From NCBI GenBank assembly GCA_964430335.1, contig CAYSEN010000001.1:1653-65652 (forward strand): a stretch of 64,000 nucleotides of DNA. Direction: 5' to 3'. Shown here piece after piece: positions 4,546 to 63,830 of this stretch. This DNA is from an uncultured Candidatus Saccharibacteria bacterium (GTDB taxonomy: Bacteria > Patescibacteriota > Minisyncoccia > Phycocordibacterales > SIBU01). A program made the position numbers and the translations under genes. Positions within the stretch are counted from its first letter, which is position 1; every line of letters begins with the position of its first letter. The notes below the pieces were generated by a model. The model was not told where the DNA came from and ran no database searches. It saw only the letters and a list, made by a program, of their open reading frames with translations.

Positions 4546-4618
4546 GCGCCCATAGCTCAGTTGGTAGAGCACCTGCCTTTTAAGCAGAGGGTCGTAGGTT
4601 CGATTCCTACTGGGCGCA
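4546..4618 (+). tRNA. tRNA-Lys (anticodon UUU)
   Basis: Manual fold: acceptor gcgccca/tgggcgc, D-arm gctc-agttggta-gagc, anticodon stem cctgc/gcaga with loop cTTTTaa, T-arm gtagg-ttcgatt-cctac. No encoded CCA. Confidence 0.85.
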
Positions 4619-4626
4619 CAAGACGA

Positions 4627-4654
4627 AAAAATCCGGACTGCTCCGGATTTTTTC
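4627..4654 (+). terminator. rho-independent terminator after tRNA-Lys
   Basis: aaaaaatccgga-ctgc-tccggatttttt. Confidence 0.75.
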
Positions 4655-4659
4655 GTACC

Positions 4660-4705
4660 TGTGCGAGCCGGAGCCATGTTTCGCTACCAAGCGAAACGGG
4701 CGAGG
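4660..4705. repeat. 46-nt direct repeat, copy 1 (copy 2 at 4899-4944), hairpin-containing
   Basis: Identical tgtgcgagccggagccatgtttcgctaccaagcgaaacgggcgagg at both loci. Internal hairpin gtttcgc/gcgaaac. Confidence 0.8.
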
Positions 4706-4837
4706 CAAGGTCATGAAAATTTTCGAGTGGCGACGAGAAAATTATTCCTGACCACAGGCGAAATGACCAAGCAGGTCTAAATGACCTGCGTGTAGGAATC
4801 GAACGGCGGAGTATAAAATTTTCAGCAGAAAATTTTT

Positions 4838-4900
4838 CGAGCCGGTGACCAGACAAAACTTTTTGACGAAAAAGTTTTAGTCGAGGGAGATTTCCTATTG
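4838..4900 (+). ncRNA. conserved tRNA-trailing structured element (copy A; homolog at 62056-62120)
   Basis: cgagccGGTGACCAGACAA-[hairpin aaactttttg/caaaaagttt]-TAGTCGAGGgagatttCCtaTTG aligns with 62056-62120 cgaggcGGTGACCAGACAA-[hairpin atctacaaac/gtttgtagat]-TAGTCGAGGtcgaatCCctgTTG. Flanks are conserved and the hairpin base pairs covary. Confidence 0.5.
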
Positions 4901-4944
4901 TGCGAGCCGGAGCCATGTTTCGCTACCAAGCGAAACGGGCGAGG
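4899..4944. repeat. 46-nt direct repeat, copy 2
   Basis: Exact copy of 4660-4705. Confidence 0.8.
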
Positions 4945-5026
4945 AGGGGTCGCGAGTTTCGAGGCTGACGAGCCGAAGAAAACTTGTGACCACAAGAAAG
5001 TTCACTTAATGAACTATGTTTCTACC

Positions 5027-13212: not shown

Positions 13213-13482
13213 TGCCGAAGAGAGAGATTGCGATCCAAAAAGGTTGAACCTTTTTGGATCTAAACACACATTTCACTCTGCATTTTGTGGGCTTGTGACC
13301 AGCATCAATCTCAAAGTTAAATATTTAGAATGATGGCTGCATTAAAATGTGGAGAATTTTCATCCAGCACAAATCACTTTGTGATGGATTAACCCTAAAT
13401 CGAAACTTGAGATTCTCCCGAACTCACGCTTCTCTTAACCTTCGCGGACTTTTATAAGGAGGTCCGCACCCCGTGAAATAGA

Positions 13483-13791
13483 TCAACCGCCTTGGCTGAC
13501 CCATCGCTTGGCGGCATCAAGAGCCTCTCCAGCGTTCTCGAAACAGACAATGTCCGTTTCGTTGTGCCAGAACTTAATCTGGTCTGTGGCGTTCGCCAGC
13601 GCATCCAGCACCTCGGCGTCCGTCACTATTTTTCGAGTCGGGTGTAAACCCCGACCGAAGAAGCGTTCGAAACAACCTTCGGAACCTCGAACGCCTGAAA
13701 TCTGGAATGTTCGGTCACCAACCTTCCATTCCAGAGATTTCCGATTCCCCTCCACCCAAATGCGGAGGAGGGCTAGTTGTGTGGTGTTCAT
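13483..13791 (-). CDS. hypothetical protein (high-GC island)
   Basis: ORF in a high-GC region. No family recognised. Confidence 0.35.
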   Translation of the reverse strand: MNTTQLALLRIWVEGNRKSLEWKVGDRTFQISGVRGSEGCFERFFGRGLHPTRKIVTDAEVLDALANATDQIKFWHNETDIVCFENAGEALDAAKRWVSQGG

Positions 13792-13816
13792 AATGAACAG
13801 GGTGTGGGGTAAAGCC

Positions 13817-14197
13817 CTACACCAACGAGATCAGACAGACCTCTTTTTCCGTCATGTCACCCATACACCCGTAAGGGCAGTGGCCCTTTGGGGTGACATC
13901 GTAATCGTAGGAGATTCCAATGTTGCCGCAAATGCAGCAGCCTCCTCCTGGGACCCACCACACACCGGCGATGGGTTGAAAAACTCCCGTAGGAGTCAGA
14001 TAGGCCAGGAGTCCTTCGGATTCCTGGCCGCTATAGACAAGACGCTTTTTTGCAGCGTCTAGCACGGGGACACACTCTTCCCCCTGTGTTACTGAGCCGT
14101 CGGCCCAGTAACAGACGTAGCGAGGAATCTCGTTCCTCGCCTGAAGAGAACGAAGCAATGCTTCGATCTCTTTTTTTGATTTTGTTGAACTACTCAT
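13817..14197 (-). CDS. hypothetical Cys-rich protein (high-GC island)
   Basis: Cys cluster GGGCCICGN...HCPYGC. No family recognised. Confidence 0.35.
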   Translation of the reverse strand: MSSSTKSKKEIEALLRSLQARNEIPRYVCYWADGSVTQGEECVPVLDAAKKRLVYSGQESEGLLAYLTPTGVFQPIAGVWWVPGGGCCICGNIGISYDYDVTPKGHCPYGCMGDMTEKEVCLISLV

Positions 14198-14285
14198 AGA
14201 ATTTCATTTTCGAAAAATCAAAAACAAAATTCTATGAGTAGTGCTGAATACTGTCTTTAGATTTACCAACGTTTTGATAAACCCA

Positions 14286-14321
14286 ATAAACAGGAGAAGT
14301 TGTAACCGCAACTTCTCCAAA
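14286..14321. repeat. hairpin direct repeat copy 1 (ataaacaggagaagttgtaaccgcaacttctccaaa)
   Basis: 10-bp perfect stem ggagaagttg/caacttctcc. Near-identical copy at 16058-16093. The flanks (tgataa... and ...cgacaattt) are also shared. Confidence 0.75.
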
Positions 14322-14481
14322 CCTAACGACAATTTTTTCTCGGGATAGTCGTCCTTCCCATGACACTGCATGTCAGGCCACACCATTTAGAACGGTGGCA
14401 ACTTTCCAGCATTTTTCATGCCGGACTTTTACGCACTTCTGTTACGAAGGTGGTGCGATCCTTCGGATGTCTTTCCATCAG

Positions 14482-14805
14482 TCAGAGAGTGACGCGGATA
14501 GCCACAACCTCGTCGTCCGCACTGCATTTGAATATACCAAGTACCTGTTCAAGGCCGTTTGTGCGACGTTGAAAGTCTTGGTCATCATTTGCATTGTGAC
14601 GATTGGTGGCATTTTCATGCGCAGTCTTCGGGAAAAAACAAACGCAATAAACGCTGTCGTTCCAAAAACCTGAACATGAATCCTCATCACTCTCTCCCTC
14701 CAAAATCGCTTCTGGCACATAAGTGAAATCAAATGTACCGAAGGTATTTCGAGCAATCTTTATTGCCCGAATGATCTCAGAGGGATTAAGGCTAACTTCC
14801 TTCAT
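14482..14805 (-). CDS. hypothetical protein (107 aa from MKEV start)
   Basis: Strong SD GGGAGGAG upstream of the ATG (MKEVSLNP). The ORF-track N-terminal extension is probably not translated. Confidence 0.4.
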   Translation of the reverse strand: MKEVSLNPSEIIRAIKIARNTFGTFDFTYVPEAILEGESDEDSCSGFWNDSVYCVCFFPKTAHENATNRHNANDDQDFQRRTNGLEQVLGIFKCSADDEVVAIRVTL

Positions 14806-14923
14806 GGAAGCTCTCCTCCCACTTTTTTCACTGAAGTGGCAAACCGTCGAATGCAGTTCCGCCAAACAGCTCACGTTTTACGATAGGCAGTGAGGGCCTT
14901 TGAGAGACTGACGGTCTCTCAAA

Positions 14924-15853
14924 CTACTTGAGGTACTTCGTGAGCACCTCAACCACCCGCTCGACTGAAAGGGTCGAGCTGACACCCTGAGGGCTTCCGC
15001 CGATGGTCGGGGAACCTCCCCAACCCGGCTCGAGGGTCGCCAACTCGGCGAGCGCGGACTTGATGTCCGCGTACTTGCTGGCCTCGAAGGCGCAGATCGT
15101 GAACTTCCGGTGGGGCTCTCCCGCCCCGAGCCGAAAGCTCGGGTTGAGCGCCACCACGACCGGCGCCAGCGCATAGCCAACCGACGTGGCGGCGCGGTGC
15201 GTCGACTCGACGACCGCAATGCACCCGCCGGCACAAACCTCGTGCCGAATCGCTCCGCTCTCAAGAGCGGCGATCATGTCGGCGCGCTCGCGCTCAACCT
15301 GAGCGCGATAGTTGCCCGGCTCCTCGCCGGTCAACAACCACTTTTCCATAGTGGCGACCCGCTCCCCGAGTGGGATCTTGAAGTCCGCAACCGCCGCCGC
15401 AATCGCGGCGAGCGGTCGGGACGATTCGGCCCCTGCCGAGCTATCGTCCCACGGGCTGCCCCGGGTCGGGAGGGGTTTCGGGCCGGTGTACCCGCCACGT
15501 GCGAACTTGTCGGCGGCGGCAACCATACTGATCCGATCCATCGCGGACTCGAGACCTTCGCCCTTCGCCCGGATGTTGAAGATCGCCATCGCCCCAACAC
15601 TGTCGAGGTCGGCTCGCACAGTGACCAATGTCGCCCTCTCGGCCGGGATCTCTACCGTCAGCGCGGCCTCGATGGCCGAGCTGTTGGCGTCTCCTTCCGA
15701 TCCGTGCTGGGGGTCGAGGTTGTACACGCACCGAGCCGCAAGGCTCGGGACGGTCACCTCGATTCCGAACACCTGCCCGGACGAGAAAACCTTCTCGTTC
15801 GCCTCAGAGGCGGCCGGAAGATTGCGGGGATCCAGAATTGCAAAATGAAACAT
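14924..15853 (-). CDS. hypothetical protein (309 aa, about 65% GC) with C-terminal Gly-rich motif GWGGSPTIGGSPQG
   Basis: ATG (MFHFAILDP) preceded by AGGTGA. Many overlapping ORFs here are high-GC artefacts. No confident family. Confidence 0.45.
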   Translation of the reverse strand: MFHFAILDPRNLPAASEANEKVFSSGQVFGIEVTVPSLAARCVYNLDPQHGSEGDANSSAIEAALTVEIPAERATLVTVRADLDSVGAMAIFNIRAKGEGLESAMDRISMVAAADKFARGGYTGPKPLPTRGSPWDDSSAGAESSRPLAAIAAAVADFKIPLGERVATMEKWLLTGEEPGNYRAQVERERADMIAALESGAIRHEVCAGGCIAVVESTHRAATSVGYALAPVVVALNPSFRLGAGEPHRKFTICAFEASKYADIKSALAELATLEPGWGGSPTIGGSPQGVSSTLSVERVVEVLTKYLK

Positions 15854-16057
15854 TTTGTAATTCACCTATCTTCAAACAAAAGCAAAAAAATGTGACTATT
15901 TTGGTACACACTTATTTTGTTCTCACAAAACGCGGGTTTCTAAGTCGCGAATTGTGCCTGAATCGGATTTGTCGACAAGTGAGCGGGGGTCTAGACTGTC
16001 CCCATTCACCTGTCGAAACCAATTCGTGTCTACAGACTGGCAAAATTTGTCAGCCTG

Positions 16058-16093
16058 ATAAACAGGAGAAGTTGTAACCACAACTTCTCCAAA
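16058..16093. repeat. hairpin direct repeat copy 2 (ataaacaggagaagttgtaaccacaacttctccaaa)
   Basis: See copy 1. There is one loop substitution (g to a). Confidence 0.75.
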
Positions 16094-16158
16094 ACCCGTG
16101 CGACAATTTATCCATTTTGTGGAATAGGAAGTCGCCCTTCCTTTGTTGTTGGTCTGGA

Positions 16159-16557
16159 CTAGCGATATGTTGCATCTTTCCAGACTGTAAAACTACGACC
16201 TTCCGCGGTCGTAGTTTCGATGATCTGGTGACCGGGAGCTTCCCCGGTCTCAGCCAGAACCTCCTCATCCAGGCATTCCATCCTGGATGAAAGAGTGGTC
16301 AGCCGGAGATTCCCGGCCACGGCGAGTTTCTCGAACTCGCCGTTCATCTCGCGCAACTGCGCGAGACAGTAAGCCAGATGTTCTGGCGCATCTTCGACGC
16401 CTGTAGCATCGACCGATATCTCCGGACCGCACAGGCAGTCCGGAGATGTCTCATTCAGAAAGAGCAACTGCCCCCTCCGAACGAACCACAATTTCATTTT
16501 CATAAAATTGTAAAAAGGATGGTACCGCCAGCCAACATGGCCAGCGAACAAATACAA
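16159..16557 (-). CDS. hypothetical protein (island)
   Basis: ORF track. AGAGGG-like SD before the first ATG. Confidence 0.3.
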   Translation of the reverse strand: MYLFAGHVGWRYHPFYNFMKMKLWFVRRGQLLFLNETSPDCLCGPEISVDATGVEDAPEHLAYCLAQLREMNGEFEKLAVAGNLRLTTLSSRMECLDEEVLAETGEAPGHQIIETTTAEGRSFTVWKDATYR

Positions 16558-17189
16558 TCCCTCTTTCCGGCACTAAGTAAATCTAACGCCGGAGAAGAGG
16601 AATAACATTGCGGTTATTGCTTTGGCAAAATTTGTTCCGCCTTACTCCTTCCTCTCTATTTAGTTTTCAAATTACTTCCCTACTCTACCTATCACTTTCC
16701 GCAACTCGCGGACTTCCTGGTGTAAGGACATTTTGAAGTACAAAGTGGGTTAGACTTTACACTTCATCGATGTCCTGACGAGCCTTCTCGTCGACAACGG
16801 GCGATGAGTTTACCTTAAAGGTATATCTCCGTCATTTGGAATGGGTTTCGAAGCCAGACCATATGTAGAGCACTCATCATTCGAAACGAGATATTCAAAA
16901 GGCTGCCTCTCTCCCCACTCTCTCTTCTTTCCATACTTAGCCGCTTTCGCGGAGGCTATGGGACCTTCCCTTTCGGGCTAGAGGTGGGGGGCAATCTTTC
17001 GGCTATCTCCTGAACGAACTTGACTTTCTGGCAATAGAATATCTTAATTAGATAGCGAGTGTCAATTATTTATGACATAAAATGGCCGGTTATTGCAAAA
17101 TCTAGTAACAACATGGATTTTATGGCTTATCCACATATTACTATTGTCATATACTTGTGACAAAAACAGCTTTATGCTAGACTAAAAGT

Positions 17190-22082: not shown

Positions 22083-22290
22083 GTTGTCCACAGAAAGCAG
22101 GTATTTGCAAAAAAAATGGCTATTTGATAAAACTATGACACTAGGGTGTTTCCTTTAAAAAGAACAAGGAAAATACTCATTAACAATTAACTTTTTGTTC
22201 ATGGACGACGAGAACGAGACATTAGATCCAGATCTTATGGATGAAGCATCTCCAGATCTAGGAGATGGTGAGGAAGAAGACATGATATAA

Positions 22291-22324
22291 AAATAAACCC
22301 CCTTTAAAGGGGGTTTATTTTTAT
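22291..22324. terminator. bidirectional terminator (serves tyrS on the minus strand)
   Basis: aaataaaccccctttaaagggggtttattttt. Confidence 0.8.
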
Positions 22325-22325
22325 A

Positions 22326-23540
22326 TCATTTGATTGTTACTTTTAGGAATCGATGTTTCCCGACCTTAAACACAGCGGAAGATTCAACTTTGAAGTTAAA
22401 ATCCAAAATCTTTACGACTTTTCCATCCGATTCTAGAAAACCGACCGCGTTTTCCCCAACAAGCCTTCTCCATTCTGACTTTGAAGATATTAGGCTGGTT
22501 TTGAGCAGACACTCGGACAAAAGGCTTCCCTTCTCTGATTCAATTTCTGGTATCTCGTCTGGAATTTCACCTTTGCTAAAAGTTTTAAGAAAATTTTCTT
22601 TCGCAACTTTAGCTTTTTTGTCTCCGTAGTAAACAGCCACTACCTTTTCTGCAAGTCTCAATTTCAAATCTCTAGGATTAACTCCGGATTCTAAACTTTT
22701 TTTAATATCGGCTATTTCGGAAAGTGGCACGGTTGTACACAATTCAAAAACCGGCAAAATAAAGTCATCAGACCAACTCATTACTTTGCCAAAAATTTCA
22801 TCTGGTTTTTCGTTTAAAGAAACCATGTTCCCCTCTGTTTTACCCATTTTTTTGCCAGTAGAGTCGACAAGCAACTTCATTGAAATAACCACCTTTTCTT
22901 TGTCGTTTAGCTTTTTAAGCAAATCCCTACCCATCAACATATTAAAGGTTTGGTCATTTCCTCCTATCTCTCCATCTACATTCATCGCAACCGAATCGTA
23001 ACCTTGTAAGACAGGGTAAAGGAATTCACTTAAATACAGATCTTTTCCTTCACTAATTCTTTTCTGGAACATGTCTCGCTTAATGGTCTGAGCATAGGTT
23101 ACATTTGAAAGAAGTTTGGCAATGTCCACCATCGATAATTTATTTATCCACTTTGAATTATATTTTAATTCGGCAGGATTATTGCCTGAAAAATTCAAAA
23201 TCTTTGAAACCTGCTTTTTGTAGAACTTGGCGTTGGCTACAACTTGTTCGCGAGTAAGAGGGACTCTCATCGACATTTTATCAGGATCGCCAATCATGGC
23301 TGTAAAATCTCCGATCAGTAAAATAATTTTATGTCCTAATTTCTGGAATTGAGCCAATTTTAGCATCGGAATTACATGACCAAGATGAAGGGTTGGTCCT
23401 GTAGGGTCGGCTCCTAAATATATAGTTAATTTCTCACTTTTTGAGAGTTTTTCTTGCAAATATTCCCTGCTCGGGTATATTCGCTCAACTCCTCGGGTTA
23501 ACAGTTCGTTAATTATTTCTTGATTTTCCATGAACAACAT
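22326..23540 (-). CDS. tyrS: tyrosyl-tRNA synthetase
   Basis: HIGH motif LHLGH, KMSKS-like KMGKT and a C-terminal S4-like domain. The true start may be the internal Met (MENQEI, about 23531). Confidence 0.9.
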   Translation of the reverse strand: MLFMENQEIINELLTRGVERIYPSREYLQEKLSKSEKLTIYLGADPTGPTLHLGHVIPMLKLAQFQKLGHKIILLIGDFTAMIGDPDKMSMRVPLTREQVVANAKFYKKQVSKILNFSGNNPAELKYNSKWINKLSMVDIAKLLSNVTYAQTIKRDMFQKRISEGKDLYLSEFLYPVLQGYDSVAMNVDGEIGGNDQTFNMLMGRDLLKKLNDKEKVVISMKLLVDSTGKKMGKTEGNMVSLNEKPDEIFGKVMSWSDDFILPVFELCTTVPLSEIADIKKSLESGVNPRDLKLRLAEKVVAVYYGDKKAKVAKENFLKTFSKGEIPDEIPEIESEKGSLLSECLLKTSLISSKSEWRRLVGENAVGFLESDGKVVKILDFNFKVESSAVFKVGKHRFLKVTIK

Positions 23541-58133: not shown

Positions 58134-59072
58134 GTGCGACACGTTATGAAAAACGAAATTGAGAGCCTAAAAAGGCAATTTTTGGAATATATCGAGATAG
58201 AAAAGGGCCGGGCTATAAGAACCGTAGAGAATTATGACCATTATTTGACGGTTTTTATCAGACAGACCAAGGTCAGCGGTCCTAAAGATATAACCGACGA
58301 CAACGTCAGGGATTTTCGTATTTGGTTGAATAGACAATCAAACGGCAATAACCGCGCCACTGGGGACACTATGAAAAAGAAGACCCAGAACTATTATCTA
58401 ATAGCTCTGAGGAGTTTTTTAAAGTTTTTGGCCAAAAGAGGTGTCACTGCCCTGCCGGCGGATCATATCGAACTAGCAAAGGTTGGAGAAAGGCAAATAG
58501 ATGTAATATCTAAGGATGAATTAAAAAGATTGTTTGATGCTCCAAACAAGGAAAAGAATCTAGAAAGAAAGTTTCGCGATAAAGCAATCTTGGAAATGTT
58601 GTTTTCCACTGGTTTGCGTGTTTCTGAGCTTTGCTCATTAACTAATGATCTTGATTTACGTTTAGATGAATTTTCTGTTAGAGGAAAAGGAGGCAAGGTC
58701 AGGGTTGTTTTTTTGTCCGATGAAGCTAGGCACTCAGTAAAGGAGTATCTGCACCTACGTAAAGACATGTCCAATGCGCTTTTTGTTAAATTAAGTGATG
58801 AAACAGCTAAAAATGGTGATGTTACAGGTTTAACTCGGCGATCTGTAGAAAGAATTGTAAAAAGATACGCAACTATTGCTGGAATCTCAAAAAAAGTCAC
58901 CCCTCACGTCATTCGTCATGTGTTTGCTACGGATTTGCTTTCAAATGGTGCTGATATAAGGTCTGTGCAGGCCATGTTGGGCCACGCAAATATAGGCACA
59001 ACTCAGATTTACACTCATGTTACCGACAAACACCTGCGAGACGTGCACAAAAAATTTCACAATAAAAGCTAA
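58134..59072 (+). CDS. tyrosine site-specific recombinase (XerC/XerD family)
   Basis: C-terminal catalytic HVIRHVFATDLL...LGHANIGTTQIYTHV with the nucleophile Tyr. Confidence 0.85.
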   Translation: MRHVMKNEIESLKRQFLEYIEIEKGRAIRTVENYDHYLTVFIRQTKVSGPKDITDDNVRDFRIWLNRQSNGNNRATGDTMKKKTQNYYLIALRSFLKFLAKRGVTALPADHIELAKVGERQIDVISKDELKRLFDAPNKEKNLERKFRDKAILEMLFSTGLRVSELCSLTNDLDLRLDEFSVRGKGGKVRVVFLSDEARHSVKEYLHLRKDMSNALFVKLSDETAKNGDVTGLTRRSVERIVKRYATIAGISKKVTPHVIRHVFATDLLSNGADIRSVQAMLGHANIGTTQIYTHVTDKHLRDVHKKFHNKS

Positions 59073-60313: not shown

Positions 60314-61846
60314 CTAATTAACCTTATATTTTCCCCTTATTTTCTTTAAATTGTCATTTTCAACCTGATCCTTAGACTCCTTACCTTTTTCTGCTAACTT
60401 TATGAGTGTTTCATCTGAAACATCTTTAAGTTCTATAGCTCTTTGTTCGAGATACTCAGCGGTATTCAACTCCGGTTTTTCTAGCACTTCCTCTAAAAGA
60501 GCAAGCAAAATATGGCCAATTTTGGGTCCAGGGGTTACATGTGTAACCTCCATTAGTCTTCGGCCATCTATTTTAAGCATTCCCACTGTAACAGGGTCCC
60601 TCATTACTTCCTCAATCATTGCCTTATATTTTCTTAGTCTATAAGGATCCTCCTTAGGCCTTCCTGTTCCTATTCTGTCACATATACGTAGGTTCATTAG
60701 GTCCCAGACATTTTCCTTGCCCACCTTAGCAATCAACCTTCTGACCGCAGAAGGAGTGATTTGTTCGGTATCAGAGAAAAACATGTGCCATCTTATTAGT
60801 TTCACTACGGTTTCTATGGTTTTTTTAGGGAAAACAAGCCGATTTAAAATTTTCTCTGTTACACGTGAACCAACAACCTCATGGCCGTAGAAGGTCCATT
60901 GACTTGTTTCATGTGAAAAGCGTCTAGTTTCAGGCTTAGAAATATCGTGAAATAGGGCTGCTAGTCTTATTTCTAGGCTCCATTTCTTGTCCGCAGCGTG
61001 CTGTAAGGATCTTAGAAGGTGTTCCCAGACATCATATGAGTGAGCTTGGTTTTGCTCAACACCGATTGATTTCTCCAGTTCAAGGCTTATAAACTTAAGA
61101 ACACCCAATTCATGGCTTAGAATAAGGCCTGACATTGGATTGTCAGACATAATAATCCTGACGAACTCATCTCTAATCCTTTCATTAGCAATCTCTTTTA
61201 GCAGGTCTGCATTGTTTTTAATAGCTACCGAGGTTTCAGGGTCTATCTTAAAGCCTATTTCGGTCGAAATCCTAACGGCTCTTAGCATTCTTAGCGCATC
61301 CTCGTTAAATCTCTCGTGGGCATCCCCTACCGTTCTAATCAGCTTTGAAGATAAATCATCTTGTCCTTTATAAAGGTCAATCAATTGTCCTTTAACATCT
61401 GAATATATCTTTTCCGACTTAGGATCACTCGTATAATCTTCTATATCGAGCGCAATTGCGTTAATAGTGAAATCTCGACGCTTCAGGTCATCTTCTAGCT
61501 TGTTACTAAATTCAACGCTGTCAGGACGTCTTTTGTCGGAATAATCGGATTCTAGTCGGTAAGGTGTAATCTCAACAATCGAAAGTGTTTCATCTGAAAC
61601 GTTTTCGTTAACAACTCCGACTGTTCCGTACTTATTCTCATAGAATGTCTTTGGGAAGATTTTTATTATATCCTCTGGCCTTGCGTTGGTTGTGAAATCC
61701 CAATCTTTAGGTTTCCTTCCAATTAACAAGTCTCTTACGCAACCGCCGATCAAATAAGCTTCAAAGTTAGCCTTTTTCAGTGTATTTGATACATTTACAA
61801 TCTCGACTGGCAATTGAAAGTTTTGTGCTTGTTTTAAGGCTTTCAT
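60314..61846 (-). CDS. cca: CCA-adding tRNA nucleotidyltransferase with HD domain
   Basis: GGCVRDLLIGRKPKDWDFTT polymerase-beta head motif. HD domain residues later. Confidence 0.85.
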   Translation of the reverse strand: MKALKQAQNFQLPVEIVNVSNTLKKANFEAYLIGGCVRDLLIGRKPKDWDFTTNARPEDIIKIFPKTFYENKYGTVGVVNENVSDETLSIVEITPYRLESDYSDKRRPDSVEFSNKLEDDLKRRDFTINAIALDIEDYTSDPKSEKIYSDVKGQLIDLYKGQDDLSSKLIRTVGDAHERFNEDALRMLRAVRISTEIGFKIDPETSVAIKNNADLLKEIANERIRDEFVRIIMSDNPMSGLILSHELGVLKFISLELEKSIGVEQNQAHSYDVWEHLLRSLQHAADKKWSLEIRLAALFHDISKPETRRFSHETSQWTFYGHEVVGSRVTEKILNRLVFPKKTIETVVKLIRWHMFFSDTEQITPSAVRRLIAKVGKENVWDLMNLRICDRIGTGRPKEDPYRLRKYKAMIEEVMRDPVTVGMLKIDGRRLMEVTHVTPGPKIGHILLALLEEVLEKPELNTAEYLEQRAIELKDVSDETLIKLAEKGKESKDQVENDNLKKIRGKYKVN

Positions 61847-61904
61847 TTAGGGTTATTTTATTATATCTTTTGATTTTTCGCTAATTAGCGTATGATATGG
61901 AAAC

Positions 61905-61976
61905 GCTCTCGTGGTGAAATGGATATCACAACGGTCTTCGGAACCGTCGTTGGGGGTTCGAATCCCTCCGGGAGCA
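61905..61976 (+). tRNA. tRNA-Arg (anticodon UCG)
   Basis: Acceptor gctctcg/cgggagc (one G-U), anticodon stem acggt/accgt with loop cTTCGga, T-arm ggggg-ttcgaat-ccctc. Overlapping ORF 61892-62095 is spurious. Confidence 0.8.
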
Positions 61977-62055
61977 CAATAAGCGAAGCTATATTGCTCC
62001 CGGAGGGATTCGAGCGCCGGAGCACACGAAGTCCAGACTCAGCAGAGTTTGGGTG

Positions 62056-62120
62056 CGAGGCGGTGACCAGACAATCTACAAACGGCGGTTTGTAGATTAG
62101 TCGAGGTCGAATCCCTGTTG
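62056..62120 (+). ncRNA. conserved tRNA-trailing structured element (copy B)
   Basis: See copy A at 4838-4900. Confidence 0.5.
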
Positions 62121-62191
62121 TTTACGATCTTTGAGTATCAAGTCTTCTCATTTGTATAAATTTAATTTCAAGCTATAATGTTTGAAATTAA

Positions 62192-62262
62192 GCGGGTATG
62201 GTTTAGTGGTAGAATGGTTCCTTGCCAAGGAACAGACGGGAGTTCGATTCTCCCTACCCGCA
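62192..62262 (+). tRNA. tRNA-Gly (anticodon GCC)
   Basis: Acceptor gcgggta/tacccgc, anticodon stem gttcc/ggaac with loop tTGCCaa, T-arm gggag-ttcgatt-ctccc. Confidence 0.85.
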
Positions 62263-62373
62263 CAACAGTAAGGGTAAGGAGGCATGTTATGCCTCCGTGG
62301 GAGAATCGAAGCCCGATTGAGCCGAGCTTCCTAGCGAGCCAATTGGGGTACTGAAACTGTAAGTTTAGATTCT

Positions 62374-62392
62374 CCCTACCCGCACATTGTAG
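62374..62392 (+). repeat. 19-nt direct duplicate of tRNA-Gly 3' end (gattctccctacccgcaca), followed by a terminator hairpin at 62396-62423
   Basis: Exact copy of 62244-62262. The sequence between contains an inverted T-arm copy gggagaatcgaa. Confidence 0.7.
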
Positions 62393-62773
62393 AAAAACCG
62401 CTTTTATAGCGGTTTTTCTGTTACGCACTGGGCTGTTTGACGAAACATGGTGCTTTTGTTTACAGCGTGCATAAAAGCAGTCATAAGAACGTGTTGAAAT
62501 AGGACATTTTTAAAAGACCTTAGATTTTGGACATTCGTCACTATGTGACCACTAAATATCTCTTTGATGACTCATAAGGTCCGGGATTATATTCATTGTT
62601 ATCAACAAAAAACCTCAAAACTGTGGATAACTATGTGAACTAGTGTATAAGAGACAGTTTACCGCCAAAAGAGACATTCATCTCTTTCTGCCTTTTAATG
62701 GCCTAAAATATGGCTATTACAGGTATTTGTCCGATTCCGTTATCAGTTTCACGTGAAAAAAATGTGATAAAGT

Positions 62774-63175
62774 GTGTTTGTGGACATAAGGAAAACAGAA
62801 ATTCAAAAAACAGGGGCTTTAGGTGAGGATTTGGCGGTTAAATACCTTGAAAATAAAGGCTATTTTGTAATTAGACGTAATTATCTCAAAAAATATGGAG
62901 AGATAGATATAATAGCCAAAAATAAGGATTTAATTCATTTTATTGAGGTGAAAACTGTTACTGTTCCATCGGGTTTAAATTCAGGCAATGATTTTCATCG
63001 TCCAGAGGATAATGTTCATAAACAAAAGCTTCTAAGGCTTTCCCGAACTATTCAGGCCTATCAAATTGAGAATATGAAGGAAGGGGAGGATTGGCAGTTT
63101 GATGTGGTGACTGTTTTGCTCGACAAAATCAATAAAACGGCCAAAATCAATCTGATTGAGGATATTGTACTTTAA
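62774..63175 (+). CDS. yraN: YraN-family (UPF0102) endonuclease-like protein
   Basis: GALGEDLAVKYLENKGYFVIRRNY...GEIDIIAK...IHFIEVKT. The start may be a downstream codon. Confidence 0.7.
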   Translation: MFVDIRKTEIQKTGALGEDLAVKYLENKGYFVIRRNYLKKYGEIDIIAKNKDLIHFIEVKTVTVPSGLNSGNDFHRPEDNVHKQKLLRLSRTIQAYQIENMKEGEDWQFDVVTVLLDKINKTAKINLIEDIVL

Positions 63176-63322
63176 GGAATGGCCGTTTTTAAATTTATAT
63201 GATAAGCTTTGCATTCTAAGAATATTGATAAGTAAGCTGTGTCGTTTTCGTAGAGTGTGGTTTACAGGAAGTGTAAAAGTTCGGGGTTATTTGATCATTA
63301 ATTAATTTCTAGTGTTGTTCGT

Positions 63323-63393
63323 CGGGGCGTGGTGTAACGGTAGCATAAACGCTTTGGGAGCGTTCAGTCCGAGTTCAAATCTCGGCGCCCCGA
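63323..63393 (+). tRNA. tRNA-Pro (anticodon UGG)
   Basis: Acceptor cggggcg/cgccccg, anticodon stem aacgc/gcgtt with loop tTTGGga, T-arm ccgag-ttcaaat-ctcgg. Confidence 0.8.
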
Positions 63394-63521
63394 CGAAACA
63401 CAATAGTATTTAATGGACAAATGACAGGACGAGCGAGGAGTATCCTTGGCCCAAAGGGCTAAGTTCAAGTTTATGTCTCATCGATCCGTAGAGAATATTA
63501 TTTCTAGAACAAGCAAACACA

Positions 63522-63830
63522 ATGAGCAGACTTTTTCAAAGAAAAATAGAAGATTTTTCTTGTGAGAATTGTGGTCATGAGGTTACTGGCAATGGATACA
63601 CAAATCACTGTCCAAAATGTTTGTGGAGTAAGCACGTAGATGTAAATCCTGGTGATAGGGAAGAGAAGTGTGGTTTTCTAATGGAGCCAGTGTCTTACGA
63701 AAAAAGAGGAGAAGAGTTTTATATAACACACAAATGTCTCAAGTGCGGTTTTGTAAGAAAAAACTCTTTTACTAAAGGGGATAATTTTGAAGCTCTGCTC
63801 AGTATTGGCAAAGACAGTACTATTGCTTAG
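63522..63830 (+). CDS. RNHCP-domain zinc-ribbon protein
   Basis: CENCGH...YTNHCPKCLWSKHVD...CLKCG. Confidence 0.6.
   Translation: MSRLFQRKIEDFSCENCGHEVTGNGYTNHCPKCLWSKHVDVNPGDREEKCGFLMEPVSYEKRGEEFYITHKCLKCGFVRKNSFTKGDNFEALLSIGKDSTIA

What the first reader, a model, noticed from the sequence alone, without database searches (positions are those of the whole stretch)
61977..62191. Homologous trailing element after tRNA-Arg with covarying hairpin and inverted acceptor/T-arm copy
Immediately after tRNA-Arg, its last 13 nt (ccctccgggagca) pair with a downstream inverted copy (tgctcccggaggg). An M1-like segment (cgagcgccggagc...gggtgcgagg) follows. Then comes an M2 copy (62056-62120) whose flanks match the tRNA-Lys locus while the hairpin stem differs with compensatory changes (aaactttttg/caaaaagttt versus atctacaaac/gtttgtagat). 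The element ends in gtcgaatccc, mimicking the tRNA-Arg T-loop. Conserved flanks with a covarying stem are the hallmark of a functional RNA structure.
Basis: seen in the sequence. Interest (0 to 1): 0.7.

Follow-up and report, generated by a model that had tools for sequence, protein, structure and literature searches.

The report
tRNA-flank structured element of Patescibacteria
The stretch after tRNA-Arg is one copy of an apparently undescribed structured element found behind many tRNA genes in Patescibacteria: a conserved two-hairpin core held between an antisense and a sense copy of that tRNA's own 3' end; its function is unknown.

Summary
Immediately after tRNA-Arg(TCG) lies a perfect 19-nt inverted copy of the tRNA's T-loop, T-stem and acceptor 3' strand. 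It is followed by two hairpins (SL1, SL2) homologous to the tRNA-Lys locus, and by a short direct copy of the T-loop and T-stem.

This is neither chance nor a local duplication. The SL2 flanks occur in 52 genome loci, all Patescibacteria or loosely labelled MAGs, and in 77 metagenome loci. They occur in no viral contig. Most copies lie 70-190 nt downstream of a same-strand tRNA, across about 27 anticodon types.

Covariation is strong: 96% of cells are paired and 19 of 27 pairs show double changes. G.U outnumbers A.C 56:16, so the fold is selected on the tRNA-sense strand.

The arms always match the local tRNA, whereas cores up to 100% identical sit behind different tRNAs. Other core types use the same frame, including the one behind tRNA-Gly here. 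Orthologous tRNA loci in relatives differ in whether they carry an element and of which type.

No Rfam family or paper matched. My best guess, at low confidence, is an RNA whose arms form a tRNA-like clamp. The rivals are a DNA-level mobile element and a cis-antisense processing stem. The Arg copy is abbreviated and partly decayed.

The parts
61905..61976 (+). tRNA-Arg(TCG), no encoded CCA. Its 3' third (61958-61976) is the sequence copied in both arms of the element.
   Evidence: ARAGORN; Rfam tRNA 63.6 bits.
61977..61994 (+). 18-nt spacer between the tRNA and the left arm. In most homologues this position holds a terminator-like hairpin, which is absent here.
   Evidence: Sequence. A terminator-like hairpin is present in 38 of 54 single canonical copies.
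61995..62013 (+). Left arm: a perfect inverted copy of tRNA nt 61958-61976. In this copy it is contiguous, because the hairpin hpA that normally splits it is missing.
   Evidence: 2 matches, 0 expected; I7. Across the family the left arm is the complement of the tRNA 3' strands at 36 of 44 informative positions.
62014..62061 (+). A GNC/GNC closing helix, a GGA/GAG internal loop, and a variable hairpin with an AGCA loop.
   Evidence: CM alignment; RNAalifold and pair counts.
62062..62106 (+).
   Evidence: Pattern match. The upper-stem pairs covary across the 104-sequence alignment.
62107..62117 (+). Right arm: a direct copy of the T-loop and T-stem 3' strand (tcgaatccct). It is truncated, so the acceptor part is lost.
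   Evidence: Sequence. In the fold of the element alone it pairs with 62003-62013.
4546..4619 (+). tRNA-Lys(UUU), host of the second locus.
4621..4659 (+). Terminator-like hairpin directly after tRNA-Lys (A-run, GC stem, T-run).
   Evidence: Sequence.
4660..4756 (+). It is preceded by a degenerate direct copy of the tRNA 3' end (cctgtgcga).
   Evidence: CM hit 4646-4756, 39.5 bits; direct repeat D2.
4771..4905 (+). Lys element 2, canonical type A. It comprises hpA (4771-4789), the inverted T-arm copy gtgtaggaatcgaac (4790-4804), SL1 (4805-4843), SL2 (4844-4886), and a degenerate right arm gagatttcctattgtgcga (4887-4905).
   Evidence: CM hit 4784-4892, 115.7 bits; sequence.
4899..4991 (+). Lys element 3: a second M1 copy, 94% identical to 4660-4712, plus a type C' SL2.
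   Evidence: D2; partial CM hit 4907-4944.
62264..62385 (+). Type B element behind tRNA-Gly(GCC). It has the same frame: a partial inverted acceptor, hpA (62278-62297), the inverted T copy gggagaatcgaa (62299-62310), and the direct copy agattctccctacccgcac (62367-62385). The core is different (GCCCGATTG...CAATTGGGGTACTGA plus a UGUAA-loop hairpin). A terminator follows at about 62389-62424.
   Evidence: inverted 12/12, direct 13/13; homologous type B copies.

Best explanation
WHAT IT IS (well supported). Window 61995-62117 is an abbreviated, partly decayed copy of a modular structured element. Patescibacteria of the Paceibacteria/Parcubacteria type carry such elements in the 3' flank of a large share of their tRNA genes.

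A canonical copy reads, in order:
- the tRNA;
- usually a terminator-like hairpin;
- an antisense copy of the acceptor 3' strand;
- a conserved hairpin, hpA;
- an antisense copy of the T-stem 3' strand and T-loop;
- a conserved core (type A is SL1 plus SL2; other types exist);
- a sense copy of the T-loop, T-stem and acceptor 3' strand, sometimes interrupted by a mini-hairpin.

The arms match whichever tRNA is next door. The hpA, core and mini-hairpin modules are inherited and are exchanged among loci.

HOW IT WORKS (inferred, low confidence). The fold is selected on the tRNA-sense strand, so the simplest reading is an RNA made by transcription continuing from the tRNA gene. In that RNA the antisense and sense arms would zip into a replica of the tRNA's acceptor/T-stem minihelix. 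hpA would protrude where the D and anticodon domain would be, and the core would take the place of the T-loop. I propose that this tRNA-like clamp does two things:
1. It keeps the anti-tRNA arm from invading the real tRNA.
2. It lets tRNA end-processing enzymes (RNase P, RNase Z, the CCA-adding enzyme) excise and stabilise the core RNA.

The core's own task is unknown; binding a protein at the GGA/GAG loop of SL1 is one possibility.

The family evolves like a multicopy repeat, with cores homogenised between loci and elements gained, lost or replaced. The Arg copy lacks hpA and the acceptor part of the right arm. It can form only the T-part clamp, or alternatively a 21-bp hairpin with the tRNA itself.
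For: Shown:
- Distribution and tRNA linkage. There are 52 genome loci, all Patescibacteria or loosely labelled MAGs, 77 metagenome loci and 0 viral contigs. Of 115 distinct copies, 72 have a same-strand tRNA within 420 nt upstream. These cover 28 ARAGORN anticodon calls, one of which is a Lys miscall. The median gap is 122 nt.
- Arms. The inverted T copy matches at 10 of 11 or better in 51 of 72 copies. The inverted acceptor matches at 7 of 8 or better in 48 of 72. The direct 13-mer matches at 11 of 13 or better in 44 of 72. Upstream controls gave 0 of 120.
- Origin of the left arm. It is the complement of the tRNA 3' strands rather than a copy of the tRNA 5' strands (36 v 3 positions).
- Structure. 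RNAalifold predicts 28 pairs, 19 of them compensatory. In the 104-sequence alignment 96.1% of cells are paired, with a covariation score of 0.524 against 0.162 for shuffles and at most 0.113 for slid controls. hpA also covaries.
- Strand. G.U 56 v A.C 16, p about 2e-6.
- Fold of the element alone. The arms close around SL1 and SL2, z = -5.9.
- Same frame, other cores. Twenty-three of 56 bystander tRNAs in the fetched loci carry an inverted T copy downstream, against 0 of 56 upstream.
- Exchange of cores. Cores 100% identical over 87 nt sit behind tRNA-Asp and tRNA-Lys(CUU), with different hpA and mini-hairpins. The nearest-neighbour core sits at a different anticodon in 49 of 65 copies.
- Turnover at orthologous loci.

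Consistent with tRNA mimicry:
- hpA sits on the 5' strand between the acceptor and T parts, while the 3' strand is continuous, as in a tRNA.
- The right arm keeps the discriminator and the same CA(N) context as the real genes. It is followed by CCA in 9 of 44 copies.
Against: - No expression data exist, so RNA ends are unknown.
- In 38 of 54 single copies a terminator-like hairpin lies between the tRNA and the element. Only 7 of 38 have one after the right arm. Transcription would therefore need read-through or an unseen promoter.
- The left arm pairs better with the real tRNA than with the right arm in 49 of 54 copies.
- Where the right arm has diverged, the left arm follows the tRNA (64 positions) rather than the right arm (8 positions). 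Selection on arm-to-arm pairing is therefore weak.
- A processing clamp would not need to match the neighbouring tRNA.
- Presence varies between orthologous loci, so no single copy is indispensable.
- G.T wobble is also tolerated in single-stranded DNA hairpins.
Confidence: 0.35

Rival explanations
1. A DNA-level selfish element. On this reading it is a miniature, non-autonomous cassette that propagates next to tRNA genes through a strand-specific single-stranded DNA intermediate. Possible analogues are IS200/IS605-REP hairpin transposition, or recombination of a folded single strand as in integron attC sites and CTX phage. The hairpins would be recognition structures, and the arms would be made from, or corrected against, the target tRNA gene.
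For: - Many copies, several core types and tandem arrays.
- Decayed copies occur, including the Arg copy.
- Presence, absence and type all differ at orthologous tRNA loci.
- Identical cores sit behind different tRNAs.
- A direct repeat of the tRNA 3' end bounds each insert and sometimes runs into the trailer (L009, L023, L035).
- The structure is strand-specific.
- Elements mostly lie beyond the tRNA terminator.
Against: - No transposase or integrase lies in or next to the elements. The only tyrosine recombinase near this locus (58134-59072) is Xer-like, lies 2.8 kb away outside the repeats, and does not appear among the genes called in the 3-kb flanks of the syntenic loci L130-L133.
- There are no hits in 2.9 million viral contigs.
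- Inherited modules (hpA, core, mini-hairpin) are interleaved with three tRNA-specific segments, which a simple insertion cannot produce.
- The arms differ from locus to locus, so they cannot be constant transposase-binding ends.
- Identical cores can be explained by gene conversion bounded by the heterologous arms.
Confidence: 0.25
2. A cis-antisense device acting on the tRNA transcript. On this reading the real partner of the left arm is the tRNA's own 3' third. In transcripts that run past the tRNA end, the two would form a long duplex: 21 bp here, and 25 bp or more where it continues through the terminator stem. That duplex could serve as an RNase III processing or decay site, or as a switch that withholds the tRNA. 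The sense right arm would then act as a competitor that releases the tRNA.
For: - The left arm is the exact complement of the tRNA 3' third, including the variable T-loop positions 59-60 and often the trailer.
- It binds the tRNA more strongly than the right arm in 49 of 54 copies.
- It tracks the tRNA rather than the right arm.
- It covaries with a T-loop change among Lys orthologues (L009).
- With the tRNA included, the minimum-energy fold pairs the left arm with the tRNA and destroys the cloverleaf.
- tRNA-Pro in the window has a leader-trailer stem that extends the acceptor helix, as expected for RNase III-type processing (I15).
Against: - It does not explain the large, conserved and interchangeable cores or hpA.
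- A duplex that unfolds the tRNA looks harmful.
- Most copies lie behind a terminator.
- Orthologous tRNAs do without an element.
- Palindrome correction by template switching could keep the left arm matched to the tRNA without any selection.
Confidence: 0.2
3. Scars of integrase-mediated integration. Genomic islands and prophages that integrate into tRNA genes duplicate the tRNA 3' end. On this reading the element would be the remnant of such an insert.
For: - Direct repeats of the tRNA 3' third start in the T-loop, which is a known crossover sublocation for tRNA-targeting integrases (background knowledge).
- Tandem accretion occurs.
- Partial tRNA-Pro duplications starting in the anticodon loop are present in L131 and L132.
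Against: - The inserts are only 120-200 nt and carry no coding remnant.
- The same structured core, with compensatory substitutions, recurs behind about 27 different anticodon types in more than 100 loci.
- An inverted copy of the tRNA end is not a feature of att sites.
- There are no viral hits.
Confidence: 0.04
4. Chance similarity, a recent local duplication, or an assembly artefact.
For: None beyond the two in-window copies sharing sequence.
Against: - Zero matches are expected by chance.
- The two in-window loci are 57 kb apart.
- Homologues come from about 130 independent loci assembled by many projects.
- Covariation is strong.
Confidence: 0.01

Closest known systems
tRNA-like RNAs built on an acceptor/T-arm minihelix (tmRNA, plant-virus 3' tRNA-like structures, mascRNA, bacterial YrlA)
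   Same: Both have a 5' strand and a 3' strand forming acceptor-like and T-like helices around a large inserted domain. The predicted use of tRNA-processing enzymes is also shared.
   Different: Here the helices copy the neighbouring tRNA gene, and the 5' strand is a literal complement of the 3' strand. The T-loop is replaced by the insert. Dozens of paralogues exist with different 'identities'. No Rfam model matches.
Duplication of tRNA 3' ends by integrative elements (attL/attR of islands and prophages)
   Same: Both show a direct repeat of the tRNA 3' segment beginning in the T-loop and bounding an insert immediately after an intact tRNA. Both also show tandem accretion.
   Different: The insert is 120-200 nt of structured non-coding sequence with no integrase. 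It also carries an inverted copy of the tRNA end, and it is absent from viral contigs.
Bacterial structured repeats and MITEs (REP/BIME with RAYT, Correia, ERIC, IS200/IS605-derived PATEs)
   Same: All are short, multicopy, extragenic and often placed just after terminators. They fold into hairpins, decay, form arrays, and vary in presence between relatives.
   Different: Those families have constant ends and arbitrary or short targets. Here the ends are re-written for each host tRNA and are interleaved with conserved modules. No partner enzyme was seen.
Guide-type RNAs with conserved scaffolds interleaved with target-matching segments (box C/D and H/ACA RNAs, including the box C/D guide in the archaeal pre-tRNA-Trp intron; IS110 bridge RNAs; TIGR tigRNAs, PMC12045711)
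   Same: Both have conserved hairpins flanked by variable segments complementary to a specific target. Both strands of the target are represented.
   Different: The complementarity here is 20-25 nt, and the sense and antisense segments cover the same positions, so they can pair with each other. No box motifs and no adjacent Nop, recombinase or nuclease gene were found.
Retroviral and LTR-retroelement primer-binding sites
   Same: Both have a stretch of about 18-20 nt complementary to the 3' end of a specific tRNA.
   Different: There is no complement of CCA. The complementarity continues into the gene's trailer, and the element sits next to the tRNA gene itself. A survey of 95 complete Patescibacteria genomes detected no group II introns, a major class of bacterial reverse-transcriptase-encoding element (PMC13011429).

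Membership tests
tRNA (Rfam RF00005) | A cloverleaf with D, anticodon and T arms that scores above the gathering threshold. | tested here: not met
   cmscan and ARAGORN find only the four real tRNAs. Nothing is found in 61977-62191, even at E up to 10.
tRNA-like structures (tmRNA, TLS, mascRNA type) | Coaxial acceptor and T-stem minihelix formed by the RNA's 5' and 3' segments. | tested here: inconclusive
   This is predicted from complementary arms in canonical copies. In the Arg copy only the T part can form. Arm-to-arm compensatory changes are rare (8 positions).
tRNA-like structures (tmRNA, TLS, mascRNA type) | Single-stranded discriminator plus CCA at the 3' end. | tested here: inconclusive
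   CCA follows the right arm in 9 of 44 copies, against 7 of 72 real tRNA genes. Most copies have CA(N), like the real genes.
tRNA-like structures (tmRNA, TLS, mascRNA type) | Recognition by RNase P, RNase Z, the CCA-adding enzyme or an aminoacyl-tRNA synthetase. | not testable with these tools
   This needs biochemistry or RNA end mapping.
Intrinsic terminator | A GC-rich hairpin followed directly by a T-run. | tested here: not met
   The hairpin formed by the tRNA 3' end and the left arm is followed by gcgccgg, with no T-run. In other copies a separate terminator-like hairpin sits between the tRNA and the element.
Integrative element att sites at tRNA genes | A direct repeat of the tRNA 3' segment on both sides of the insert. 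| tested here: met
   The direct 13-mer matches at 11 of 13 or better in 44 of 72 copies, against 0 in upstream controls. In the Arg copy only 10 nt remain.
Integrative element att sites at tRNA genes | An integrase gene within the insert, or the element carried on a phage or plasmid. | tested here: not met
   The inserts are 120-200 nt with no ORF. There are 0 viral hits. The nearby recombinase is Xer-like and lies outside the repeats.
MITE / REP-type repeat | Many copies per genome, extragenic, hairpin-forming. | tested here: met
   The 64-kb window holds 5 or 6 elements behind 3 of its 4 tRNAs. Several MAGs contribute 2-4 loci each.
MITE / REP-type repeat | Constant terminal sequences recognised by a partner transposase or RAYT. 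| tested here: not met
   The arms change with the host tRNA. Only TCGAA-type T-loop bases are constant. A partner enzyme was not searched for systematically.
IS110 bridge RNA / TIGR tigRNA | Two short guides for adjacent target halves on opposite strands, box C/D-like anchors, and an adjacent recombinase or Tas gene. | tested here: not met
   The sense and antisense segments cover the same 20-25 nt. No such gene is adjacent in the window. Features were compared with PMC12045711.
Known ribozymes, riboswitches and T-box (Rfam 15) | A match to a curated covariance model. | tested here: not met
   The best sub-threshold matches were RT-11 (20 bits against a threshold of 143) and hammerhead II (17.6 against 37), both in the Lys locus. 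Nothing matched in the Arg or Gly elements or in 18 further loci.
Retroelement primer-binding site | Complementarity to the mature tRNA 3' end including CCA (a 5'-TGG start). | tested here: not met
   The left arm is preceded by the complement of the gene's trailer or terminator, not by TGG.

The most novel reading that the evidence does not exclude
The most novel reading not excluded is that each tRNA gene in these bacteria carries its own RNA cassette that acts on that tRNA. The cassette would consist of an anti-tRNA guide (left arm split by hpA), a spare or decoy 3' third (right arm), and an interchangeable core. The A, B and C core types sit in the same frame, which is the pattern seen for interchangeable self-cleaving ribozyme classes. 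On this reading the cores would be new catalytic or enzyme-recruiting RNAs that process, regulate, modify or repair the cognate tRNA. That would amount to a bacterial, cis-encoded, tRNA-specific guide-RNA system.
Probability: 0.12. Interest if true: 0.95.

Novelty: categorically new. Interest (0 to 1): 0.8.

Why it matters
Patescibacteria are a large part of bacterial diversity, have tiny genomes, and remain largely uncultivated. A structured element behind roughly half of the tRNA genes sampled here is therefore a significant and unannotated feature: more than 100 nt each, with an antisense and a sense copy of the tRNA's own 3' third.

If it is an RNA, it is a new class that is either tRNA-like or tRNA-directed.

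If it is a mobile element, it is a new way of exploiting tRNA genes, and one that re-writes its ends for each host gene.

Either way, it affects how tRNA genes, terminators and intergenic regions in these genomes should be annotated. It also provides covariance models that can be used at once on metatranscriptomes.

Tried and rejected
- Rfam. I ran gathering and E-value scans of the window and of 18 homologous loci. Nothing was found beyond tRNAs. The weak RT-11 and hammerhead II matches are far below threshold and did not recur in the other loci scanned.
- Encoded CCA as a signature of a retro-copied mature tRNA. The enrichment is only modest (9 of 44 against 7 of 72), so I dropped it as an argument.
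- Primer-binding-site reading. There is no TGG, and the complementarity runs into the trailer.
- The left arm as a remnant of a duplicated tRNA's 5' half. This is rejected: it is the complement of the 3' strands (36 v 3 positions) and of T-loop positions 59-60.
- Phage origin. The M2 pattern gave 0 viral hits.
- Leader of a downstream gene, or 3' UTR of a convergent gene. Downstream genes lie on the same strand in 57 cases and convergent in 32, with no consistent pattern.
- 'Suppressor tRNA' in L069. This is an ARAGORN miscall of tRNA-Lys(UUU).
- Literature. Seven full-text searches found no description of such elements. The TIGR-Tas paper and the paper on group I introns in Patescibacteria tRNA genes concern other things.
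- Orphan copies without a tRNA. Most of them lie at contig ends or inside arrays. Five share an upstream module that I did not resolve.
Full report
**1. Observation**

tRNA-Arg(TCG) occupies 61905-61976. Eighteen bases later, 61995-62013 (tgctcccggagggattcga) is the exact reverse complement of 61958-61976. That segment is the T-loop from position 55, the T-stem 3' strand, the acceptor 3' strand and the discriminator. With up to two mismatches the 19-mer occurs only at these two places, and 100 shuffles gave none.

Downstream of the left arm come three parts:
- SL1 (62014-62061);
- SL2 (62062-62106: GGTGACCAGACAA, hairpin, TTAGTCGAGG);
- tcgaatccct (62107-62116), a direct copy of the T-loop and T-stem 3' strand.

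The SL2 flanks recur once more in the window, at 4844-4886 behind tRNA-Lys, with a different and compensated stem. Zero matches are expected by chance. The stated interval overshoots: 62118-62191 is spacer ahead of tRNA-Gly.

**2. It is a family**

Scanning the SL2 flanks with a free hairpin gave:
- 52 loci in one-genome-per-species bacterial and archaeal contigs. All are Patescibacteria MAGs (Paceibacteria, Nomura-, Taylor-, Moraniibacteria) or loosely labelled bins.
- 77 loci in metagenome contigs.
- None in 2.9 million viral contigs.

Of 115 distinct copies, 72 have a same-strand tRNA within 420 nt upstream. Eighteen of the remainder lie too close to a contig end to tell. The tRNAs span 28 ARAGORN anticodon calls, one of which is a miscall of Lys, and the median distance is 122 nt.

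**3. Anatomy**

A canonical copy has these parts in order:
- the tRNA;
- a terminator-like hairpin, present in 38 of 54 single copies;
- an inverted copy of the acceptor 3' strand, with its stem often continuing into the terminator stem;
- a conserved hairpin, hpA;
- an inverted copy of the T-stem 3' strand plus the T-loop;
- SL1 (GNC closing helix, GGA/GAG internal loop, variable hairpin);
- SL2;
- a direct copy of the T-loop, T-stem 3' strand, acceptor 3' strand and discriminator, optionally interrupted in the T-loop by a mini-hairpin (AAGYGUACUCRCGG).

How well the arms match the host tRNA:

| Arm segment | Match threshold | Copies meeting it |
|---|---|---|
| Inverted T copy | 10 of 11 or better | 51 of 72 |
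| Inverted acceptor | 7 of 8 or better | 48 of 72 |
| Direct 13-mer | 11 of 13 or better | 44 of 72 |

The same searches upstream of 120 tRNAs gave no matches.

At positions where a tRNA's own 5' strands are not the exact complement of its 3' strands, the left arm is the complement of the 3' strand in 36 cases and equals the 5' strand in 3. It also complements the variable T-loop positions 59-60. The left arm is therefore a true inverted copy of the 3' third, not a relic of a tRNA 5' half.

**4. Structure and strand**

RNAalifold on 50 copies predicts SL1 and SL2 with 28 pairs, 19 of them compensatory. Pair counts on 104 distinct copies:

| Measure | Observed | Shuffled | Slid controls |
|---|---|---|---|
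| Cells forming standard pairs | 96.1% | 76.8% | at most 55% |
| Covariation score | 0.524 | 0.162 | at most 0.113 |

Nineteen of 27 pairs change on both sides. The seven lower SL2 pairs that never vary were fixed by my search pattern and say nothing either way.

hpA also covaries: all 9 pairs change on both sides, with 75% of cells paired against at most 46% when slid.

In paired columns G.U occurs 56 times and A.C 16 times. The same 2:1 asymmetry is seen for substitutions in the left arm. The fold is therefore selected on the tRNA-sense strand, as RNA or as single-stranded DNA. A dsDNA protein site and a minus-strand RNA are both disfavoured.

No Rfam 15 family matches.

**5. A superfamily with one frame and several cores**

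In the fetched loci, 23 of 56 bystander tRNAs (those without the SL2 pattern) also carry an 11 of 12 or better inverted copy of their own T-loop and T-stem within 200 nt downstream. Upstream, 0 of 56 do.

Their cores differ:
- Type B has a covarying closing stem, a GUAC(U/C)G motif, and a hairpin with a YGUAR loop.
- Types C and C' have the same SL1 followed by a GGGGUC...GUGACC hairpin.

In the window:
- tRNA-Gly carries a type B element (62264-62385) followed by a terminator.
- tRNA-Lys carries an array of C', A and C' elements (4660-4991).
- tRNA-Pro has no recognisable element.

**6. Evolutionary behaviour**

Core exchange:
- Cores that are 100% identical over 87 nt sit behind tRNA-Asp and tRNA-Lys(CUU) in one metagenome, and behind tRNA-Ser and tRNA-Asp in two others.
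- The identity stops exactly at GAAC...GAGG, while hpA, the mini-hairpin and the arms differ.
- The nearest-neighbour core belongs to a different anticodon in 49 of 65 copies, against a chance rate of 5% for sharing an anticodon.
- Some families are nonetheless tRNA-specific across genomes, for example the Asp elements.

Turnover at orthologous loci. I used homologues of the adjacent CCA-adding enzyme (about 75% identical) to fetch four syntenic loci. The gene order is CCA enzyme, tRNA-Arg, tRNA-Gly, UPF0102, tRNA-Pro, RNHCP.

| tRNA | Window | L130 | L131 | L132 | L133 |
|---|---|---|---|---|---|
| Arg(TCG) | type A | none | none | type C' | not read; tRNA-Arg inverted |
| Gly | type B | none | none | none | not read |
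| Pro | no element; weak similarity to the L131/L132 module | type A | type A | partial tRNA duplicates | types C and B |

The elements are therefore gained, lost or replaced over modest divergence.

Arm tracking:
- Where the right arm differs from the tRNA, the left arm agrees with the tRNA at 64 positions and with the right arm at 8.
- Among Lys orthologues, a T-loop change (G57 to A in L009) is mirrored in both arms.
- The arms are thus kept in step with the tRNA. This could be by selection, or by palindrome and repeat correction.

**7. Folding alternatives**

- Alone, the Arg element folds with the left arm paired to the right arm around SL1 and SL2 (-63 kcal/mol, z = -5.9).
- With the tRNA included, the minimum-energy structure pairs the left arm with the tRNA's 3' third in a 21-bp hairpin and destroys the cloverleaf.
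- Across 54 copies, the duplex of the left arm with the tRNA is stronger than with the right arm in 49 (median -30.9 v -22.7 kcal/mol).

**8. Interpretation**

The identity of the object is secure. It is a Patescibacteria-specific, modular, structured element of tRNA 3' flanks, and the Arg copy is an abbreviated member with no hpA and a truncated right arm. Its mode of action is not secure.

My preferred model (about 0.35) is an RNA whose arms form a replica of the tRNA acceptor/T minihelix. hpA would sit at the position of the D and anticodon domain, and the core would take the place of the T-loop. Such a clamp would insulate the tRNA from the antisense arm and would recruit tRNA end-processing enzymes.
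- For it: the strand asymmetry, the placement of hpA on the 5' strand, a continuous 3' strand with a discriminator, and the same frame being used by unrelated cores.
- Against it: the terminator that usually precedes the element, weak evidence for selection on arm-to-arm pairing, and the absence of any need for a clamp to match the neighbouring tRNA.

A DNA-level selfish element (about 0.25) fits the turnover, the arrays and the decayed copies. However, no enzyme is associated, no viral copy exists, and the interleaving of inherited and tRNA-specific segments is hard to generate by insertion.

A cis-antisense processing or regulatory stem (about 0.2) fits the better match of the left arm to the tRNA. 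It does not explain the cores.

Integration scars and chance are effectively excluded.

One mutational route could create the arm pattern (3' third, hairpin, inverted 3' third, T-loop junction, 3' third). This is a double template switch at the terminator hairpin and the T-arm hairpin, the same process that makes inverted triplications. That route is inference only, and it does not explain hpA or the cores.

**9. Novelty**

No Rfam family and no paper in seven full-text searches describes this. The two nearest papers concern TIGR-Tas guide arrays and anticodon-loop group I introns of Patescibacteria.

I know of no system that combines a conserved structured core with an antisense and a sense copy of the neighbouring tRNA's 3' third.

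Noticed in passing
window 62264-62424: tRNA-Gly(GCC) is followed by a type B element with a 12/12 inverted T copy and a 13/13 direct copy of the tRNA end, then by a bidirectional-looking terminator. The orthologous tRNA-Gly in three relatives (L130-L132) has no element.
   Followed up: partly
window 4620-4991: Behind tRNA-Lys lies a tandem array of three elements (C', A, C'). It includes two 53-nt repeats that are 94% identical (4660-4712 and 4899-4951). The type C' units are preceded by a direct copy of the tRNA end rather than an inverted one.
   Followed up: partly
window 63301-63329 with 63386-63414, and 63395-63470: The 5' leader and 3' trailer of tRNA-Pro are complementary (29 nt, 83%). 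This extends the acceptor stem like an RNase III-type processing stem. The trailer (atgacagg...agttcaag) resembles a module that in L131 and L132 precedes partial tRNA-Pro duplicates.
   Followed up: partly
L131 rc 850-1250 and L132 rc 1480-1800: Orthologous tRNA-Pro loci carry partial duplicates of the tRNA that start in the anticodon loop, about 25-35 nt after the intact gene. In L132 there are further T-arm-like copies with a different acceptor sequence.
   Followed up: no
window 13400-16600: A GC-rich island (54% against about 39% elsewhere) is bounded by a 36-nt direct repeat at 14286 and 16058. It contains a 313-aa ORF (14924-15865, minus strand) and many overlapping ORFs. No Rfam match was found. 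It looks like foreign DNA.
   Followed up: partly
window 60314-63830 and loci L130-L133: Synteny is conserved around the finding: CCA-adding enzyme (divergent), tRNA-Arg, tRNA-Gly, a UPF0102/YraN-like nuclease, tRNA-Pro, and (in the window, L130 and L132) an RNHCP protein. The tRNA genes lack encoded CCA.
   Followed up: partly
72 tRNA genes in loci L001-L129 and the window: The three bases after the discriminator are CA(N) in 56 of 72 real tRNA genes (CAA in 39) and CCA in only 7. This is a strong, unexplained 3' context preference.
   Followed up: no
L002, L033, L054, L056, L064 (for example L033 minus strand, about 1050-1200): Five 'orphan' type A elements are preceded by a shared non-coding module of about 100 nt. 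It has a doubled TGTCTCATTT motif, a TAGAAT-like box, and ...GGGTACTTAACTCGAGTGGCCCGC followed by a terminator. No Rfam hit and no tRNA were detected.
   Followed up: partly
window 22282-22329: A perfect 48-nt palindrome (24-nt arms with no spacer): ATGATATAAAAATAAACCCCCTTT/AAAGGGGGTTTATTTTTATATCAT.
   Followed up: no
L069 1487-1560: ARAGORN calls a 'tRNA-Stop(tta)'. Alignment with the window's tRNA-Lys shows the same CTTTTAA anticodon loop, so this is tRNA-Lys(UUU) with a shifted anticodon call.
   Followed up: yes
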